Source: Octopus sinensis (Eukaryota). Taken from it: a stretch of 64,000 nt of DNA. Below the pieces are notes generated by a model, which was given only the letters and a program-made list of their open reading frames with translations, was not told the origin of the DNA and searched no databases. Location: the NCBI RefSeq assembly GCF_006345805.1, contig NC_043015.1, positions 5,704,001 through 5,768,000 of the forward strand, given 5' to 3'. The translations under genes were made by a program, and so were the position numbers. This document shows, piece by piece, positions 1-54,792 of this stretch (position 1 is its first letter; every line of letters begins with the position of its first letter).

Positions 1-393
1 TCAGAGGTCTTCCAATAAGGATTATGCTCCACATTTCATATAACAAGGCAAAGCGGCCTGTCAGGGGGCCCTGGTCGAACTGGGCAAGGTGATGTGGACT
101 GTTTCCCCTCGCTTGTGAATTGAACAATCACCCTAGTGTTTTCTGTGATTTTATGCTATCTACCTTCAGATTGACTCACAATACGGCCTCTTTCAAATTT
201 GTACTGTCCCAATGCTTCTTTTCTACATGGCGTAGTTAAACAGCCACATATAGAATTTGATGCATAAAATGGTAATTAATAAAAGAAGTATATAAACCTT
301 TTCAAGTTCAAAATAAACATAAAAGGTTTTAAGGGTGGTCTATTTACTTCTGTCATATGTGTGTATACATACATATGTATATGTGTATGTCAG

Positions 394-14437: not shown

Positions 14438-15155
14438 AAGTTTCTTTATTGGCCACACAGGGCTGCACAGAGATAGAACAAATTACAATGTAGAGCTTTT
14501 CTTTTGGGGATAAAAAAAGGGGAGTGGTGGTTTTCGATCAAAAGGGATCGTAAAAGGAAAGAAAGAGGAGAAAAAAAGGGAGAGGTTAAAAAAAGGGGGG
14601 GAGAGCAAAAAAAATGAATAATAGGGATCGTTATCACAGAAATGTCAATATGAAGTGTAAAGGGGAGGACAGGTGAGGTTTACCCGTGGAAAGAAAAGCC
14701 TACGGAAAAGACCCCGGTAACCTCGGTCAATGAAGTCACATGTTATATTTTTTTTTTTTTTGCAAATAAGCAACTCTCTGTATTAATTTTTACGGTTCAT
14801 AGAATCATAGTCAAGGTGGCTTCGTCATTCATACGTGCCATCCTTGCTGCATTCACCCATCTTTTTTTAAAACATTCACTAGACAAAACTTGCCTCTCTA
14901 CTCTCACTTTTTTCTTCAAGTGATACTTGAAGAAGTTGATGAGAGATTGACCAGAGAGGAAAGTGTTTGTCTCTAATCCTTTCAGGCGCGTCCACAGATA
15001 CATTCTTTCGCCATAGCCACAAGTATGATAAAAATAGCCTTTCCTTCCCGTTTGAAGGAGGAGGCGTGACGATATTAACGATAGACTCGGCTGATAAACC
15101 GACTCGTCCCACACGTGACAGCAGTGGTTCGACATAAGCCCACAGGTCGGAAATT
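14438..15155 (-). mobile_element. 5'-truncated L1/Tx1-clade LINE, copy 1 (ORF2 C-terminus plus 3' UTR)
   Basis: WTRLKGLETNTFLSGQSLINFFKYHLKKKVRVER...RWVNAARMARMNDEATLTMIL*, with frameshifts. 3' end abuts (TATC)n. Confidence 0.85.
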
Positions 15156-15320
15156 AGGTAGGTAGGTAGGTAGATAGGTAGGTAGGGAGGGTAGGTAGGT
15201 AGGTAGGTAGGTAGGTGGTAGGTAGTAGTATGTAGGTAGATAGGGTAACGGAGAGACGTAGAGATGGATATAGATAGATAGTTAGATGACGAAGACAGAT
15301 AGATCGGAGATATATAGATG

Positions 15321-15354
<34 letters not shown>

Positions 15355-15398
15355 TAGATAGTATAGTAGTAGTAGGAGTTAGTAGATATAGTAGTATA

Positions 15399-15439
<41 letters not shown>

Positions 15440-15457
15440 TATAGATAGATAGATAGA

Positions 15458-16176
15458 TATGTTTCTTTATTAGCCACACAGGGCTGCACACAGATAGAAC
15501 AAATTACAAGGTAGAGCTTTTCTTTTGGGGGTAAAAAAAGGGGAGTGGTGGTTTTCGATCAAAAGGGATCGTAAAAGGAAAGAAAAAGGACAAAAAAAGG
15601 GAGGGGTTTAAAAAAAATGGGGGGGAGTAAAAAAATGAATAATAGGGATCGTTATCACAGAAATGTCAATATGAAGTGTAAAGGGGAGGACAGGTGAGGT
15701 TTACCCGTGGAAAGAAAAGCCTACGGAAAAGACCACGGTACCTCGGTCAATGAAGTCACATGTTATATTTCTTTTTTTTTGCAAATAAGCAACTCTCTGT
15801 ATTAATTTTTACGGTTCATAGAATCATAGTCAAGGTGGCTTCGTCATTCATACGTGCCATCCTTGCTGCATTCACCCATCTTTTTTTAAAACATTCACTA
15901 GACAAAACTTGCCTCTCTACTCTCACTTTTTTCTTCAAGTGATACTTGAAGAAGTTGATGAGAGATTGACCAGAGAGGAAAGTGTTTGTCTCTAATCCTT
16001 TCAGGCGCGTCCACCAGATACATTCTTTCGCCATAGCCACAAGTATGATAAAAATAGCCTTTCCTTCCCGTTTGAAGGAAGGAGGCGTGACGATATTAAC
16101 GATAGACTCGGCTGATAAACCGACTCGTCCCACACGTGACAGCAGTGGTTCGACATAAGCCCACAGGTCGGAAATT
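15458..16176 (-). mobile_element. 5'-truncated L1/Tx1-clade LINE, copy 2
   Basis: ORF 15816-16133 reads ...IFIILVAMAKECIWWTRLKGL..., the L1/Tx1 AKxxIWxxR motif. Confidence 0.85.
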
Positions 16177-16356
16177 TAGGTAGGTAGGTAGGTAGATAGG
16201 TAGGTAGGTAGGTAGGTAGGTAGGTAGGTAGGAGGTAGGTAGGTAGTTAGATATGTAGGTAGCTAGGGTTGGAAGGAGGGACGGAGGTAGACGTAGAGAT
16301 GGATATATAGATAGATAGTTAGATAGACAGACAGATAGATCGAGAGATATATAGAT

Positions 16357-16389
<33 letters not shown>

Positions 16390-16405
16390 TAGATAGATAG
16401 ATAGA

Positions 16406-17207
16406 TATGTTTCTTTATTAGCCACACAGGGCTGCACACAGATAGAACAAATTACAAGGTAGAGCTTTTCTTTTGGGGGTAAAAAAAGGAGAGTGGTGGT
16501 TTTCGATCAAAAGGGATCGTAAAAGGAAAGAAAAAGGACACAAAAAAAAGGGAGGGGTTTAAAAAAAATGGGGGGGGGTAAAAAAATGAATAATAGGGAT
16601 CGTTATCACAGAAATGTCAATATGAAGTGTAAAGGGGAGGACAGGTGAGTTTACCCGTGGAAATAAAAGCCTACGGAAAAGACCACGGTAACCTCGGTCA
16701 ATGAAGTCACATGTTATATTTCTTTTTTTTTTTTTGCAAATAAGCAACTCTCTGTATTAATTTTTATAGTTCATAGAATCATAGTCAAGGTGGCTTCGTC
16801 ATTCATACGTGCCATCCTTGCTACATTCACCCATCTTTTTTTAAAACATTCACTAGACAAAACTTGCCTCTCTACTCTCACTTTCTTTTTCAAGTGATAC
16901 TTGAAGAAGTTGATGAGAGATTGACCAGAGAGGAAAGTGTTTGTCTCCAATCCTTTCAGACGCGTCCACCAGATACATTCTTTCGCCATAGCCACAAGTA
17001 TGATAAAAATAGCCCTTCCTTCTCATTTGAAGGAAGGAGGCGTGACGATATTAACGATAGACTCGGCTGATAAACCGACTCGTCCCACACGTGGCAGCAG
17101 TTGTTCGACATAAGCCCACAGGTCGGAAATTGTTGGACACTGCACGAGTGCGTGCAGAACGGTTTCCTCGCTCTGACCGCATCTCGGGCAGGTCGACCCC
17201 GTGTTTC
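16406..17207 (-). mobile_element. 5'-truncated L1/Tx1-clade LINE, copy 3, including the CCHC zinc finger
   Basis: TCPRCGQSEETVLHALVQCPTISDLW (zf-RVT-type CxxC...ETxxH...C). (GATA)n on both sides. Confidence 0.88.
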
Positions 17208-17214
17208 TAGATAT

Positions 17215-17284
<70 letters not shown>

Positions 17285-17614
17285 TCAATGATGGATGGAC
17301 AGATTTTGCACAGACAGGTACACAGATAGACACATGCATATGTAACTATGTAACAATTGCACATATGTGCTTGTTTGTTTATGCATGTATAAGTATGAGT
17401 GCCAATATATTTTTGCATTAATCGTTGAAGAGCTATTTATAACAACTCTTGACTAAATGATAAGTATCAGTGTCTAACCCTGAAGCAACGTGCATTCATT
17501 TGAATTACATCATCATCTCGGTCGTCAAGGGAACCTTCCTACATGCATACAAAACAATAAAGGATATTGCTTGTCTGGCTTGCCTGAGATATATGCATAT
17601 GCACTTATTTATAT

Positions 17615-22693: not shown

Positions 22694-22894
22694 TTAGAAG
22701 TTTTTTCATTTCTTTATCTTCAGCATATATTGTAGGCGTAGGAGTAGCTCTGTGGTAAGTATCTTCCTTACGAACCACATGGATCCGGGTTCAGTCCTAC
22801 GGTGTGGCCGGTTGGTCAAGTGTCTTCTACTATAGAAGACGAACGACGAAAGTCTTGTGAGTGGATTTGGTAGATGGAAACTGAAAGAAGTCCG

Positions 22895-22931
<37 letters not shown>

Positions 22932-23033
22932 GGAGTAAACACATAAATGTGAAACAAGGTGGAAAAAAGAGTACTCAAATACCAGTGGTAGAGTAATATG
23001 GTTTATTTAAAGCAGCAGAAAATTCAACAAAAC

Positions 23034-23071
23034 CTGTTACTCTGAGTTTCCCGTTGCCGTTCATCGGACAG
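23034..23071 (-). ncRNA. Type I hammerhead-like ribozyme motif (copy at 23343-23380)
   Basis: Stem I CUGU/ACAG, core CCGAUGA, stem II CG-GCAA-CG, GAA, stem III ACU-cag-AGU, GUA site. Confidence 0.65.
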
Positions 23072-23103
23072 TTTTTGCTGTTTTTGCTAGAATCTAGCAA
23101 AAA

Positions 23104-23141
23104 CTGTCCGATGAACGGCATCGAGAAACTACGAGTAACAG
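23104..23141 (+). ncRNA. Type I hammerhead-like ribozyme motif (copy at 23413-23450)
   Basis: Stem I CUGU/ACAG, core CCGAUGA, stem II CG-GCAU-CG, stem III ACU-acg-AGU, GUA site after 23137. Confidence 0.65.
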
Positions 23142-23182
23142 GTTTTGTTGAATTTTCTGCTGCTTTAAATAAGTATATATAT

Positions 23183-23216
<34 letters not shown>

Positions 23217-23483
23217 ATATATAATATATATATATATACCGGAGTAAACACATAAATGTGAAACAAGGTGGAAAAAAGAGTACTCAAATACCAGTGGTAG
23301 AGTAATATGGTTTATTTAAAGCAGCAGAAAATTCAACAAAACCTGTTACTCTGAGTTTCCCGTTGCCGTTCATCGGACAGTTTTTGCTGTTTTTGCTAGA
23401 ATCTAGCAAAAACTGTCCGATGAACGGCATCGAGAAACTACGAGTAACAGGTTTTGTTGAATTTTCTGCTGCTTTAAATAAAG

Positions 23484-23524
<41 letters not shown>

Positions 23525-24995
23525 GTATTATGTATGTATGTATGTATGTGTGTATATATGTTTGTGTGTCTGTGTTTGTCCCTCTCCCAACGTCGCGTGA
23601 CAGCCGATGGTGTGCTTACGTCCCCGTAACTTAGTAGTTCGGCAAAATATTCCGATAGAATAAATATTAAGCTTACAAAGAATAAGTCCTGGGGACGAAT
23701 TGCTCGAGTACAGGCGGTGCTTCAGCGTGGCCATAGTCAAATGACTGATACAAGTAAAAGAATAAAAGAGTAAAAGAGTAACAGTTGACTCCAGTTCGTA
23801 TATGTCCTTTGTATTGTGTACGTATTTTAGCTTGCAGGCGTGTTTTTTTTTCTTGCATGTGGTTACATATATTTGAAAGGAAATATAGTTTATTCGCCAA
23901 TTTCTTTTTTTACTTGTGTCTATCATGCTTTTTAACTTAAAATATGAATCATAATCAAAAACACTTCTCTTTGTTGAATGGATATATAGATATACAGATA
24001 CAAATTTATAAAGGGAAAAGAGGGTAAAATCATAAATCAAGGAGAGATTTTGTTCGATACTGTCTTCATCGATCGAAGATATAGGAAAAGCAATCACGAC
24101 AGATGTACGATGTTGTCACAGTACGTCTTTATTTTTCATCCCCATTTTATAGATCATCAGATTATTGGACAGTTTCTGAGGCATATCTTTTCTTCCTTTT
24201 TTTCTTTCTTTTCTCTTTCTTTCTTTCTTTCTTTTTCCCGCAGATGGTGGTTTTGTAACCTCTTGTTAAAACTTTCTCCATTTTGGAATGTCTCCATTAG
24301 TGCTCTCTGACTACCTCGCGCAATAAATATATATATATAAAGCTGCTAATTTCGGGAAAGAGAAAAGCAGACATACAAGCAGGCAGAAACAGACAGACAG
24401 AGACAGAGATACAGACGGGGGCATAGAAATAGAGATACAATACAATGGGATACTGTAAAGGAGAGGAAAGGAGTATAGACCACAATACTTAACCGTTGCA
24501 TTTATTATGGATGATTTCGGCAGGATTTGATCATGGAGTGGAAATAGCCAGAAGATATATTTCAAAGCAATCTATCAGATTCTCAAACAATGTTACCATT
24601 TCGCCGCTTAGTAAAACTTGTAAGAAGCCAGGATGCCACGACTGTAATCCTTTTGATCTTATTTCTTCTAAATCAAAGACTGAATTTAGCTTTAAAAATA
24701 TTCACATCAAGCCAACGGCGTATCATCTGCATGGTTACTCTACCAGCCAGATATAACAACCAAATCTCCCTCTTTCCCTCTCGCTCTCTCATATCCCATC
24801 ATATTTACATTTAAATACGAGAAAGACATTCTGATAAGAAGATGAGATGATCAGTCCTCGAAAAAATTGAATTTACTCATTCAGATTATATTTTGTTAAT
24901 AACGTTCACAACAGAGAGAAAACTTGAAGTACATGCCTAGTAAAACAATACCAACACACTACTGTTTTATGGTTACCATTTTGTCACAATACTTA

Positions 24996-31957: not shown

Positions 31958-32438
31958 TTTCCTTCTTTCTTCAAATTTTCTTCCGCTTCTCACCGAGTGT
32001 TTTCCGTACACCTAGGGCAGAGAAGCAGATTGTATGCATTCCCAGATTACACACGCAAATTCACAGGTAAAATATGTATTTAAAAGATTAATAAATAAAT
32101 ACATTCATGAATGGATGTTGTTTTCACAGCGATAATGCTATTCTCAGTACATGAGTCGTTCCAGTTAAGACGATTTTGTTCACCTCCTGTAGGGATGGTA
32201 ATCCTGGTATCATTTTCAAATAGGTTTCAGTACCTTTTTTTATCATTCCTAGAGATCCTACAATCACTGGTACTATAGTCGCCTTGAGATGCCACATTTT
32301 TTCAATTTTTATTAGCAAATCTTTATATTTACTGCTCTTGTCAAATTCTTTCGCCGTTATATTGTGAACGCAAGGAATACTTATGTCAATTAATGAACAT
32401 AGCTTTTTTGTCTGATCTTTTATAATAATATCCGGTTC
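31958..32438 (-). mobile_element. 5'-truncated R4/Dong retrotransposon (restriction-like endonuclease C-terminus plus 3' UTR)
   Basis: PDIIIKDQTKKLCSLIDISIP...KYKDLLIKIEKMWHLKATIVPVIVGSLG...LTGTTHVLRIALSL*. PD..D RLE motif. (TAA)n on both sides. Confidence 0.9.
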
Positions 32439-32480
32439 ATTATTATTACTAATATTATCATTATTATTATTATTATTATT

Positions 32481-32806
32481 CAGTAGTTTTATTTTTATAG
32501 CGCGTGCTTCACTTCACTACCGAGGCAGCTCTGTGTGCCTTGAGTATGTGCTGTGATTTGTTGTGATGCTTATTGTATGGAAAGTGTTTCTGCGTAGGAT
32601 GTGTGCAGTGCCTAGTAGTGCAATTTTTCTGTATGTTAGTGTTTGTAAGTCCTGGTGTTTTGTTATGTATTTGTCTGAATAATTTTTTATCATGCCTAAT
32701 GCACCTACTATGATAGGATTGTTTCTGATTTCAGATTCCAATTCTAGTTACCTCTATTTCCAGGTCTTTGTATTTTGAGAGTTTCTCCATTTCTTTGAGA
32801 GACACA
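32481..32806 (-). mobile_element. 5'-truncated R4/Dong retrotransposon, second subfamily
   Basis: KEMEKLSKYKDLEIEV...PIIVGALGMIK...KIALLGTAHILRR, frameshifted. Different 3' UTR. TAA tail. Confidence 0.88.
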
Positions 32807-32852
32807 ATAACAATAATAATAATAACAACAACAATAATAATAACACAACAAC

Positions 32853-32910
<58 letters not shown>

Positions 32911-32913
<3 letters not shown>

Positions 32914-33299
32914 TTGGCTGATAGGTGGGAGGAGAAACCTCTGCACGGCAAATATGTGACCCGCAGTAAACAAGCTGATGTTGACCAGAAGCAAACCCAT
33001 CAGTGGCTGCGGAGCTCAGGGCTAAAAGCAGAGAGCGAAGGTTTCATCCTGGCTGCTCAAGACCAAAGCCTATTAACCCGGAACTACCAGGCCAATGTGA
33101 TGAAAAATGGAGCAGACCCAAAATGCCGATTCTGCAACGACATGATTGAAACAGTGGACCACCTAATCTCCGGATGTAAAGTCTTAGCACCAGTGGAGTA
33201 TAAACTAAGACATGACCAGAGTTGGCCAATATCTCCACTGGCTAATAAGTCGGCATTACAATATCAAAACTGCCGACAAGTGGTATAATCACCACCCTG
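32911..33299 (+). mobile_element. R4/Dong retrotransposon fragment with CCHC zinc knuckle, running into the gap
   Basis: WEEKPLHGKY...WLRSSGLKAESEGFILAAQDQSLLTRNY...CRFCNDMIETVDHLISGC...RHD.VGQYLHW. Starts directly after (AAT)n. Confidence 0.92.
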
Positions 33300-33475: not shown

Positions 33476-34597
33476 AAGAAGAAGAAAGAAGACGAAGAAG
33501 AAGAAGAAGAGAAGAAGAAGAAATGTTCAATTTACTACGATACCATTACTGACTGATGTTTCTAAGCGAAAACATTCTACCACAAAAGTGTATGAAGTTT
33601 CTGATTGACTTCAAAAAACATTTTATAAGTAGCCCGTTGGCGTGAATGCATTAATGCACTCATGGAATACTTTAACCAACAATATAATACCGAGAGAAAT
33701 ACCACACAGACTTATGCATATGTTCCTGCAGACGTAGATACTTTTAAACATATGCGTAAAAGATTTTCTCACAGATACATTCATCGATAACGCACCAAGG
33801 GAAACGCGCGCATACACAAATGATACACAAAGCATCACAAATATATATGCCATGCTATAACATGTGCAATTAATTCTTTGGTATTGTTGTAAAGACGCTA
33901 TTTTGACGTACTGGGTATCATGGGTACTTTTAAAAATTGGGTTGACTTTACCTATGAGGTGTGAGAACACTCGATTGGTTCCAGCAGGATATAAAATGAA
34001 AGCGACTCTAAGAAGAGAAGAATTGAGTTCAGTACAAGAATAGTGGTCTATTTATCGACCCGAAAAGTATTGACATTTTCCTGATTTGGGGTAAGAGAGC
34101 GTGGAGCCGAACGGATTCGGATTACAGCAAAGCAAAACTACTCGATTGGCCATTACACCTACACACACACACACACACACAAACACACATACAAGTATGT
34201 ATATATACGTACATACATACACATATATAATATATATATGTGGTGTGTGTGTGTATGTATGTATATAATATATATGTATGTATGGGTGTATGTGTGTATA
34301 TATATATTATATATATATATAAAAATTTTGCAATTCAGGACAACTACTTAATAAGGAAAATTAACAAGAAATTGTCAGGTAGATAGCGTAAAAACCTCAT
34401 AGAGAAAAAATTTCGAAAATAATTATTTCTTATTGAACATATATTAATTATATATAGAGGGCATAATTATACATACATGCCAGGAGGCATTATATATACC
34501 TGCCAAACGCTAAGAGGGACAATCAGTCATTTCTACCAAAAATATTACTAATCCCACCGAATGCAATTTTTCAAAGTAAGACATTTAAAAATATATA

Positions 34598-34640
34598 GGC
34601 CTGTATCACAGTGATTCATACTTACGTAATCATCCAGGCC
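34598..34640 (-). ncRNA. Type I hammerhead, array unit 1 (core damaged by indels)
   Basis: Same motif as 36028-36073 but missing core bases (mutation or sequencing error). Confidence 0.5.
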
Positions 34641-35080
34641 TGAATGTATTATAAATAAACAACGACCCTGCCTCGCTTAAGCCGATACAGCTACTGATCA
34701 CATCAACGAAGCACATGGTGAGTTTATATTATTAACATCCGGGTGAATGGCAACTTTTAACAAATTGCATTTCGGGAGAGGATAAGTTTTTTCGGAATAA
34801 AAATTTTTCAATTAAGGACAACTACTTAATAAGGAAAACTTAACAAGAAATTGTCAGGTGATAGCGTAAAACCCCTAATAAAGAAAAAATTTCGAAAATA
34901 ATTATTTCTTATTGAACATATTAATTTATATATAGAGGCATAATTATACATACATGCCAGGAGGCATTATATATACCTGCCAAACGCTAAGAGGGACAAT
35001 CAGTCATTTCTCTACCAAAAATATACTATCATAATCCCACCGAATGCAATTTTTCAAAGTAAGACATTTAAAAATATATA

Positions 35081-35125
35081 GGCCTGTATCACAGTGATTT
35101 CATACTTACGTAATCATCAGCAGCC
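35081..35125 (-). ncRNA. Type I hammerhead ribozyme, array unit 2
   Basis: CUG-CUGAUGA-uUAC-GUAA-GUAu-GAA-AUCA-cug-UGAU-A-CAG. Confidence 0.78.
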
Positions 35126-35564
35126 TGAATGTATTAATAAATAAACAACGACCCTGCCTCGCTTAAGCCGAACAGCTAACTGATCAACATCAACGAAGCA
35201 CATGGGTGAGTTTATATATATTACACATCCGGTGAATGGCAAACTTTTACAAAATTGCATTTCGGGAGAGGAAAAGTTTTTTCGGAATAAAAATTTTGCA
35301 ATTAAGGACAACTACTTAATAAGGAAAACTTAACAAGAAATTGTCAGGTAGATAGCGTAAAAACCTCATAAGAGAAAAAATTTCGAAAATAATTATTTCT
35401 TATTGAACATATTAATTTATATATAGAGGGCATAATTATACATACATGCCAGGAGGCATTATATATACCTGCCAAACGCTAAGAGGGACAATCAGTCATT
35501 TCTACCAAAAATATTACTAATCCCACCGAATGCAATTTTTCAAAGTAAGACATTTAAAAATATA

Positions 35565-35609
35565 GGCCTGTATCACAGTGATTTCATACTTACGTAATCA
35601 TCAGCAGCC
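35565..35609 (-). ncRNA. Type I hammerhead ribozyme, array unit 3
   Basis: Identical motif, 484 nt from unit 2. Confidence 0.78.
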
Positions 35610-36027
35610 TGAATGTATTATAAATAAACAACGACCCTGCCTCGCTTAAGCCGAACAGCTAACTGATCAACATCAACGAAGCCCATGGGTGAGTTTATAT
35701 ATATTACATCCGGTGAATGGCAAACTTTTACAAAATTGCATTTCGGAGAGGAAAAGTTTTTTCGGAATAAAAATTTTGCAATTAAGGACAACTACTTAAT
35801 AAGAAACTTAACAAGAAATTGTCAGGTAGATAGCGTAAAAACCTCATAAGAGAAAAAATTTCGAAAATATTATTTCTTATTGAACATATTAATTTATATA
35901 TAGAGGGCATAATTATACATACATGCCAGGAGGCATTATATATACCTGCCAAACGCTAAGAGGGACAATCAGTCATTTCTACCAAAAATATTACTAATCC
36001 CACCGATTATTATTTATAATACATTCA

Positions 36028-36073
36028 GGCCTGCTGATGATTACGTAAGTATGAAATCACTGTGATACAGGCC
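36028..36073 (+). ncRNA. Type I hammerhead ribozyme, inverted arm copy 1
   Basis: Stem I GGCCUG/CAGGCC, core CUGAUGA, stem II UAC-GUAA-GUA (GNRA loop), GAA, stem III AUCA-cug-UGAU. AUA cleavage predicted after 36067. Confidence 0.85.
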
Positions 36074-36509
36074 TATATATTTTTAAATGTCTTACTTTGA
36101 AAAATTGCATTCGGTGGGATTAGTAATATTTTTGGTAGAAATGACTGATTGTCCCTCTTAGCGTTTGGCAGGTATATATATGCCTCCTGGCTGTATGTAT
36201 AATTATGCCCTCTATAATAAATTAATATGTTCAATAAGAAATAATTATTTTCGAAATTTTTTCTCTTATGAGGTTTTTACGCTATCTACCTGACAATTTC
36301 TTGTTAAGTTTTCCTTATTAAGTAGTTGTCCTTAATTGCAAAATTTTTATTCCGAAAAAACTTTTCCTCTCCCGAAATGCAATTTTGTAAAAGTTTGCCA
36401 TTCACCCCGGATGTAATATATATAAACTCACCCATGTGCTTCGTTGATGTTGATCAGTTAGCTGTTCGGCTTAAGCGAGGCAGGGTCGTTGTTTATTATA
36501 ATACATTCA

Positions 36510-36554
36510 GCCTGCTGATGATTACGTAAGTATGAAATCACTGTGATACAGGCC
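36510..36554 (+). ncRNA. Type I hammerhead ribozyme, inverted arm copy 2
   Basis: Stem I GCCUG/CAGGC, same core. Cleavage predicted after 36548, 481 nt from the previous site. Confidence 0.83.
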
Positions 36555-37146
36555 TATATATTTTTAAATGTCTTACTTTGAAAAATTGCATTCTGTGGGA
36601 TTAGTAATATTTTGGTAGAAATGACTGATTGTCCCTCTTAGCGTTTGGCAGGTATATATAATGCCTCCTGCATGTATGTATAATTATGCCCTCTATATAT
36701 AAAATTTAATATATATATATATATATTATACGCTTTCTAGTACGTTAGAACGCATGGCGCATTTATTGTGGTATATCGTGCCAGACAGACATTGCTATAG
36801 TTTTATATGCCCACGGGCATATGGCGTAGAAGTTAAGAGCACGGGTACTAACCCCATTACTCCGAATCCGATTTCATGCAGTGACCTGGTCAATTAGCAG
36901 CGACTCCCTCTAAGAATATCTGCGGGAATATTATTCCGAAATATCATATCAGACTATGGATGACTAAATTACAACAGTTATATAGCCCATTGCCTGTATT
37001 ATAGTGCATTGTTGTACCATTCAAGACACTTTTCCTTTACAAACAATACAGAATACTTCAAGCGGACAGAAATACTCTCCTATAATAATAATGATAATAA
37101 TAATAATAATAATATTAATAATAACAATAACATAATAATGATGATG

Positions 37147-54718: not shown

Positions 54719-54792
54719 GGTCAGTTTAGCTTAATGGTAAAGGACTTTACGCGTAATCATAGATATGTGAGTTCGAGTCTCATAAATGACCG
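54719..54792 (+). pseudogene. tRNA-like sequence (decayed tRNA or SINE head; possible CGT anticodon)
   Basis: Acceptor ggtca../..tgacc, D-arm tagcttaatggtaaag, T-arm GTGAG-TTCGAGT-CTCAT. The anticodon stem pairs poorly. Confidence 0.5.

What the first reader, a model, noticed from the sequence alone, without database searches (positions are those of the whole stretch)
22930..23481. Duplicated palindrome with back-to-back hammerheads whose differences fall only in unpaired positions
Seen: each ~170-bp palindrome encodes an outward-facing type I hammerhead on each strand (stem I CUGU/ACAG, core CCGAUGA, stem III ACU/AGU, GUA site). Within the motif the two arms differ only at loop II (GCAA vs GCAU), the base before GAAA (G vs A) and loop III (CAG vs ACG). 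The cassette is repeated at a 309-bp period and sits in the (AT)n of a SINE. Inference: a miniature version of the 34-36 kb architecture from an unrelated family, with a U4C core variant and a very short stem II.
Basis: partly seen in the sequence, partly recalled or inferred. Interest (0 to 1): 0.72.

Follow-up and report, generated by a model that had tools for sequence, protein, structure and literature searches.

The report
Duplicated stub of Hydra Penelope retrotransposon
The mirror-image DNA with a hammerhead self-cutting-RNA motif on each strand is real, but it is the short two-armed end piece of a very abundant Penelope-type jumping gene, likely made in one insertion and then likely duplicated, so it is an ordinary kind of genome debris whose arm differences are likely decay, not selection.

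Summary
Observation confirmed: two near-identical cassettes, 309-bp period, each a 170-bp palindrome with two outward-facing type I hammerhead motifs, in the (TA)n of a SINE-like repeat. The cassette is the end repeat (pLTR) of a Penelope-like retrotransposon: a pLTR 21-mer occurs 7,518 times, and full-length copies (3,353-bp unit) carry an intact 711-aa reverse transcriptase/endonuclease ORF with Hydra-clade motifs and a telomerase-like fold. Inverted, 5'-truncated pLTR pairs with a one-sided tail are the published footprint of these elements, and this scan has noted such palindromes on other DNA of this genome. The hammerhead is conserved between element lineages (0 of 28 core/stem positions differ). 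The arm differences here are not evidence of selection: two of three were not seen in other copies, and the loop III change breaks a helix III pair of the published Hydra fold. C4 and the short stem II are lineage alleles. Side result: arms end at two fixed sites 71 nt apart, 39 of 39 two-ended units use one of each, both arms share a source subfamily in 74 of 77 pairs, and none pile up at the cleavage site. Whether the duplication is real or an assembly artefact is open.

The parts
22733..22896 (+). 5' part of the host repeat (tRNA-type SINE; label recalled)
   Evidence: 75 BLAST hits among the fetched loci and the window; joined to the 3' part across a short microsatellite in other copies
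22897..22929 (.). (TA)n target tract, left
22930..23000 (-). 71-nt tail of the long arm, copy 1; in full-length elements it continues into the 5' UTR and the ATG
23001..23092 (-). pLTR part of the long arm, copy 1, with a 9-nt duplication at 23080-23088
23034..23071 (-). Hammerhead motif, family-type sequence (C4, G before GAAA); predicted cut between 23038 and 23037
23093..23173 (+). Short arm, copy 1: pLTR from 45 nt before the cleavage site to the AATAAAG end
23104..23141 (+). Hammerhead motif with changes at 23121, 23124, 23131-23132; predicted cut between 23137 and 23138; predicted weakened
23174..23238 (.). 65-nt (TA)n tract between the duplicates
23239..23401 (-). Long (tailed) arm, copy 2; hammerhead motif 23343-23380
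23402..23483 (+). Short arm, copy 2; hammerhead motif 23413-23450 with the same changes as copy 1
23484..23560 (.). (TA)n/(TATG)n tract, right
23561..23780 (+). 3' part of the host repeat

Best explanation
Each cassette is two head-to-head copies of the end repeat (pLTR) of an abundant Penelope-like retrotransposon, likely of the Hydra clade, likely made in one insertion into a (TA)n tract and likely duplicated afterwards. Shown: the arms match the pLTR and tail of full-length elements with an intact RT-endonuclease ORF; arms of the family end at two fixed 3' sites 71 nt apart; two-ended units carry one of each; both arms nearly always come from the same subfamily. Inferred: the element's enzyme cuts both strands of (TA)n and primes each DNA end at one of the two sites on the same uncleaved RNA; both cDNAs run towards the RNA 5' end about 47 nt before the cleavage site and are joined head to head by short microhomology. 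The hammerhead is the parent's pLTR ribozyme, under selection in active lineages and predicted to need a dimer or protein help. In this copy it is a passenger: a read-through transcript is predicted to form a roughly 80-bp hairpin that hides it, and the right arm has picked up damaging changes. The 309-bp repeat likely arose by slippage or unequal exchange between the flanking (TA)n tracts, or in the assembly.
For: Parent: 571 matches to the junction of pLTR and upstream sequence; inverted pairs with gaps from 0 to 3,440 nt, the long ones holding RT fragments; tail runs into 5' UTR and ATG; open frames of 721-727 codons in 3 of 20 fetched regions; unit 3,353 bp; model pLDDT 87, best fold match telomerase TERT, E 1e-8; Hydra motifs. 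The published Hydra-2_aMil hammerhead has the same stem I, helix III and cleavage triplet. Ends, in the first 100 arms in genome order: 56 at +35..42 and 44 at +100..112; partner end identifiable for 55 of 100 arms and of the opposite type in 55 of 55, which is 39 units. Same subfamily allele in 74 of 77 pairs against 55% expected. 5' ends: 20 in -47..-41 against 3 in -54..-48, and 3 of 100 within 2 nt of the cleavage site. Hairpin -121 kcal/mol against -5.3 for the hammerhead fold. Similar (TA)n-spaced tandem copies at L169, L211, L010. Literature: inverted 5'-truncated copy and one-sided tail (PMC8557442); two internal RT start sites, both strands cut and extended, uncleaved RNA used (PMC11167929); dual motifs 100-700 bp apart on opposite strands (PMC4209133).
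Against: Pfam gives no hit for the full ORF and only a sub-threshold RVT_1 hit for a fragment. The Hydra linker CxCX5C has Phe for the middle Cys in both intact copies, against Cys in 25 of 25 homologues. The unit is longer than the usual <3 kb and the tail longer than 30-40 bp. No tree was built. Two of the 28 distinct loci have a tail on both arms (L024, L030), and 3 of 77 pairs are discordant. The RNA 5' end at -47 is inferred from truncation points and a conserved initiator-like motif only. The intact ORFs belong to the younger U4 subfamily, not this copy's C4 subfamily. The duplication was not verified.
Confidence: 0.88

Rival explanations
1. The palindrome is a selected twin-ribozyme module: both hammerheads are kept active in this copy, and the duplication supplies dimer partners (retrozyme-like).
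For: Core intact in all four motifs; tandem type I hammerheads 309 nt apart meet the retrozyme screen of bioRxiv 10.64898/2026.07.22.740005 in spacing; the motif is conserved between lineages.
Against: Stem I pair probability in the cassette transcript is 0; right-arm changes are not seen in other copies and are predicted to be damaging; the hammerhead fold (-5.3 kcal/mol for the right arm) lies far above the minimum-energy fold (-13.0); conservation is explained by the parent element.
Confidence: 0.05
2. The palindrome arises by fold-back: one cDNA (or an antisense-templated one) primes on itself and copies itself, instead of two primings.
For: Arms match in 74 of 77 pairs; short palindromes sit at many junctions; self-priming was proposed for Adineta elements (PMC3846280, passages).
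Against: The short end is as sharp as the tailed end and also ends arms with no partner found; it drops the C that microhomology with (TA)n would keep; 3 discordant pairs need two templates or conversion; either arm can be the longer one.
Confidence: 0.25
3. The 309-bp duplication, and perhaps the right-arm changes, are long-read assembly errors; the genome holds one cassette.
For: The two copies are identical except for one homopolymer A; neighbouring repeats show many 1-nt indels; perfect hairpins are hard to sequence (own knowledge).
Against: Both copies share the same changes; other (TA)n-spaced duplicates in the assembly differ by substitutions. This rival concerns only the duplication, not the identity of the cassette.
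Confidence: 0.3
4. The 234-bp palindrome is itself a non-autonomous element copied as a unit from master copies.
For: Many top hits share nearly the same central junction.
Against: That set was chosen by similarity. In the genome-order sample the 5' ends and junctions vary widely and arm lengths form a continuum up to full length.
Confidence: 0.07

Closest known systems
Hydra clade of C-terminal endonuclease Penelope-like elements (Craig et al. 2021, PMC8557442; saw abstract, section 11, passages, supplement rows)
   Same: Single ORF of about 710 aa with RWK, DKT, CxxC and CxH motifs, no CCHH; (TA)n targets; pLTR hammerhead with 4-bp helix III and 1-nt loop; Hydra-2_aMil shares stem I, helix III and the GUA site; inverted truncated copy plus one-sided tail.
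   Different: 3.35-kb unit; 71-nt tail; Phe in place of the middle Cys of CxCX5C; 2-3 bp stem II; thousands of copies. The listed octopus family Hydra-1_Obim has a different hammerhead and, by eye, a clearly different protein, so this is another family.
[quoted passage not shown]
   Same: Type I motif in pLTRs, palindromic helix III suited to dimers, dual motifs on opposite strands 100-700 bp apart from truncated PLEs, low expected activity.
   Different: Those have a long helix II (7-8 bp) and a conserved G10.1-C11.1 pair; here helix II is 2-3 bp with A-U, A.G or A.A at that site and helix I is long.
PAc (Poseidon clade) in vitro mechanism (Frangieh et al. 2024, PMC11167929; read parts 1-2 of 4)
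   Same: Two internal RT start sites define the tail; both target strands cut and extended; AT-rich target; uncleaved RNA is the template.
   Different: Different clade; its start sites lie inside the ORF, here both lie upstream of the ATG and 71 nt apart; use of one site per DNA end was not reported in the parts read.
Non-LTR retrozymes (bioRxiv 10.64898/2026.07.22.740005; read part 1 of 5)
   Same: Tandem units with type I hammerheads, derived from PLE pLTRs.
   Different: Here the repeat unit is a whole palindromic insertion between (TA)n tracts, two copies only, not a head-to-tail array of single motifs.

Membership tests
Penelope-like elements (EN+) | Telomerase-like reverse transcriptase in a single ORF | tested here: met
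   711-aa ORF with YRDD; best Foldseek match TERT, E 1.1e-8. Pfam did not detect it.
Penelope-like elements (EN+) | C-terminal GIY-YIG endonuclease | tested here: inconclusive
   GVVY...YTG motif, conserved across 27 sequences; one close homologue carries PF01541 (family name recalled); no direct Pfam hit; domain not folded alone.
Penelope-like elements (EN+) | Direct pLTRs flanking the ORF, inverted truncated copy, one-sided tail | tested here: met
Hydra clade | RWK and DKT motifs | tested here: met
   RWK in both intact copies; DKT in L130, EKT in L115
Hydra clade | CxCX5C linker | tested here: inconclusive
   First and last Cys present, middle one is Phe in both intact copies; Cys in 25 of 25 homologues
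Hydra clade | No CCHH motif; CxxC and CxH beside the conserved E and N | tested here: met
   By inspection against the text
Hydra clade | (TA)n insertion preference and pLTR hammerhead | tested here: met
Hydra clade | Placement in the clade by RT phylogeny | not tested
   No tree built; reference proteins were only seen as supplement text
Type I hammerhead ribozyme | Conserved core and three helices | tested here: met
   Descriptor match; lineage conservation; C4 is a known natural variant that lowers activity in vitro, and 2-bp stems II are known (PMC3088659, passages). No Rfam match.
Type I hammerhead ribozyme | Self-cleavage after GUA | not testable with these tools
   Needs an assay; insertion ends show no pile-up at the site
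Non-LTR retrozyme | Head-to-tail tandem array whose units yield cleaved, circular monomers | tested here: not met
   Unit is a palindromic insertion between (TA)n tracts, predicted to fold as a hairpin; RNA not testable

The most novel reading that the evidence does not exclude
This family records the Penelope insertion reaction: one RT-endonuclease dimer primes the two ends of a (TA)n break at two fixed sites 71 nt apart on the same uncleaved RNA, one site per end, and both cDNAs run off at a transcription start just before the hammerhead. The one-sided tail and the head-to-head palindrome would then be one event, and the conserved hammerhead would act at a step other than making the template.
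Probability: 0.5. Interest if true: 0.45.

Novelty: new member of a known kind. Interest (0 to 1): 0.2.

Why it matters
The locus itself is one of thousands of stubs and matters little. The family is more useful: it is young, has intact ORFs and sharp ends, and its insertion statistics (one short and one tailed end per unit, shared source, no ends at the ribozyme site) give testable predictions for the still unresolved Penelope transposition cycle and for what pLTR hammerheads do.

Tried and rejected
Rfam at gathering score (whole window) and at E up to 10 (22900-23520): no hammerhead family, only hairpin-type miRNA models below threshold. Pfam and PDB sequence searches with the ORF: nothing significant. 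Sequencing runs: no RNA holder listed. Contigs of four runs could not span the microsatellites, so the duplication is untested. No contig of four runs (X1-X4) covered 23121-23123; this is no proof either way. Idea that the two arms come from two random RNAs: rejected, 74 of 77 concordant. Idea that hammerhead cleavage sets the 5' ends: not supported, 3 of 100 ends within 2 nt; arms cut off more than 7 nt downstream of the site are invisible to this sample. A canonical TATA at -30 or a downstream promoter element for the inferred start: not evident by eye. 5' ends called near -135 to -230 are mostly subfamily differences from the reference, not true ends. The 3' flank count (11 of 33) is inflated by a 1-nt alignment offset, so the 5' flank was used. 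Earlier-findings look-ups near this place and by sequence returned nothing. Paper searches listed no description of this family or of one-site-per-end priming; the library lacks most subscription papers, including the older Penelope structure papers and Repbase, so this is weak.

Full report
Observation. The window holds two cassettes, 22930-23173 and 23239-23483, repeated at 309 bp and identical but for one A in the terminal AATAAAG. Each contains a 170-bp palindrome with 77-nt arms that differ at 23121, 23124 and 23131-23132. A type I hammerhead descriptor finds one motif per arm, facing outward. Rfam has no matching hammerhead model. The cassettes sit in the internal microsatellite of a common two-part repeat whose halves lie 6-102 nt apart in many other copies; calling it a SINE is recalled.

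It is a dispersed repeat. A search of the own genome gave 1,224 candidates; the 40 scored were 91-100% identical, and the loci shown lie in (TA)n. A 21-mer from the arm's outer part occurs 7,518 times against 0 for the reversed control. A pattern joining the arm to its upstream sequence gave 571 matches, many as inverted pairs; gaps between inverted arms run from 0 to 3,440 nt, and the long ones hold reverse transcriptase fragments. The 71-nt extension of the long arm continues into a 5' UTR and an ATG. Of 20 regions fetched, 3 had open frames of 721-727 codons; in L115 the pLTR-to-pLTR unit is 3,353 bp and the ORF 711 aa. The window's arms match that element's pLTR and tail at 5 substitutions in the long arm, apart from the 9-nt duplication.

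What the parent is. The protein has 1,076 homologues at E <= 1e-20 among 7,995 scored, best 57%. Pfam and PDB sequence searches found nothing significant, but the model (pLDDT 87) matches telomerase TERT best. Against the definition of the Hydra clade (PMC8557442, section 11) it has RWK, DKT (EKT in one copy), CxxC and CxH, lacks CCHH and targets (TA)n. It departs in the linker, where the middle Cys of CxCX5C is Phe, against Cys in 25 of 25 homologues, and in length. No tree was built, so the clade is likely, not proven. The paper's supplement lists Hydra-2_aMil with the same stem I, helix III and GUA site, and an octopus family with a different motif and protein. I saw supplement rows only, not the figures.

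The hammerhead. Against 25 copies of an older lineage the majority letter differs at 0 of 28 core and stem positions, 5 of 10 variable positions and 11 of 28 upstream positions (p=0.0003). The changes are C4/U4, position 7, the second base of a GNRA loop, the base before GAAA and the single loop III base. In the older lineage the base before GAAA is U in 25 of 25, giving a 3-bp stem II. In 236-255 pooled arms U4 outnumbers C4 by 172 to 63, and the base before GAAA is A 176, G 57, U 16 (296 arms found, 27 dropped as overlapping loci; the pool is biased by the queries). C4 also occurs in unrelated motifs in the fetched flanks, and both U4C and 2-bp stems II are known natural variants (PMC3088659, passages). 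Helix III is a palindrome with a one-base centre, as in the published Hydra motifs, which covary there; it can form only 3 bp as a monomer but 8 bp between two molecules (predicted -9.4 kcal/mol).

The arm differences. GCAU and ACG appear in 0 of 59 other arms, and no other scored copy exceeds 95% over 23096-23160. ACG breaks the inner helix III pair and lowers the predicted dimer helix to -5.1 kcal/mol; GCAU removes the GNRA loop and creates a predicted hairpin that takes in the core. The third change lies at a tolerant site. All three lie within 12 nt and could be one event or a consensus error. They are not evidence of selection on this copy. A transcript through the cassette is predicted to fold into one hairpin (-121 kcal/mol) with zero probability for stem I.

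How the palindrome is made. I took the first 100 exact matches in genome order (112 rows, 12 duplicates from overlapping loci dropped). Their 3' ends fall in two classes, 56 at +35..42 and 44 at +100..112, counted from the cleavage site. For 55 of the 100 arms the end of an inverted partner could be identified, and it was of the other class in 55 of 55; by hand count these are 39 units, one locus counted twice. Two of the 28 distinct loci have two tails. Paired arms share the subfamily allele in 74 of 77 pairs, against 55% expected at random (two tandem loci counted twice). 5' ends number 20 in -47..-41 against 3 in -54..-48, then thin out downstream; 3 of 100 lie within 2 nt of the cleavage site. 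Conservation between lineages also starts at about -51, around an initiator-like motif. These facts fit the in vitro behaviour of a Poseidon element: two internal start sites, both strands cut and extended, uncleaved RNA as template, predicted dimer (PMC11167929, parts 1-2). My inference is twin priming, one site per DNA end, on one RNA, with run-off at a start near -47 and head-to-head joining. Fold-back self-priming, proposed for rotifer elements (PMC3846280, passages), remains a rival. The inverted copy with a one-sided tail is the published footprint (PMC8557442), and dual motifs on opposite strands were noted in 2014 (PMC4209133).

The duplication. Both copies share the private centre and the private changes, so the duplication came after the insertion. 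Similar (TA)n-spaced tandems occur at 2 of about 73 loci in the genome-order sample (L169, L211; hand count) and at L010. Slippage or unequal exchange between the tracts is the simple reading; an assembly artefact is not excluded, because only short contigs of public runs were available.

The 34-36 kb structure. It is 3.5 head-to-tail units of 477 bp followed by about 1.5 inverted units, with outward-facing canonical motifs, and no BLAST hit to this cassette. The shared head-to-head layout is what Penelope insertions give in general; this locus is not a scaled-down version of that array.

Verdict. Real, explained, and ordinary in kind: a new family of a known clade, leaving a known footprint. 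Earlier notes of this scan report the same kind of palindrome elsewhere in this genome; I read them after forming my view and did not check their loci. The end statistics are the only part of some specialist interest. Novelty: new member of a known kind. Interest 0.2.

Noticed in passing
window 34319-36712: 3.5 tandem 477-bp units with canonical type I hammerheads on the minus strand, then an inversion at about 36008 and 1.5 units on the plus strand; between (TA)n tracts; many 1-nt indels between units; likely another Penelope-type or retrozyme-like family.
   Followed up: partly
window 29432 (-) and 49854 (+): Two further hammerhead-like motifs; the first is a minimal motif of a family seen in several fetched flanks.
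   Followed up: no
window 54720-54791 (+): Rfam tRNA hit at 35 bits, not called by ARAGORN; possibly a tRNA-derived repeat.
   Followed up: no
window 32124-33288 (-) and 14879-17436 (-): Open-frame fragments that look like C-terminal parts of non-LTR retrotransposon proteins (resemblance recalled).
   Followed up: no
L125:659-2150: A second Hydra-like ORF fragment followed by a hammerhead with the same helix III but a different stem I (GAUAA/UUAUC) and a long stem II; relatives in L118 and L165.
   Followed up: partly
L115:1760-3892, L130:3309-5441: The intact ORFs have Phe in place of the middle Cys of the Hydra linker, yet the family is young and still targets (TA)n.
   Followed up: no
L004, L105, L178: Inverted pairs whose arms carry different subfamily alleles, pointing to two templates or gene conversion.
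   Followed up: partly
L211, L169, L010, L029: Tandem copies at 172 (three single arms), 299, 281 and 1,467 bp periods.
   Followed up: partly
L213-L237: An older lineage of the same element with a 3-bp stem II and a fully paired 8-bp stem I; several of its arms also start near -47.
   Followed up: yes
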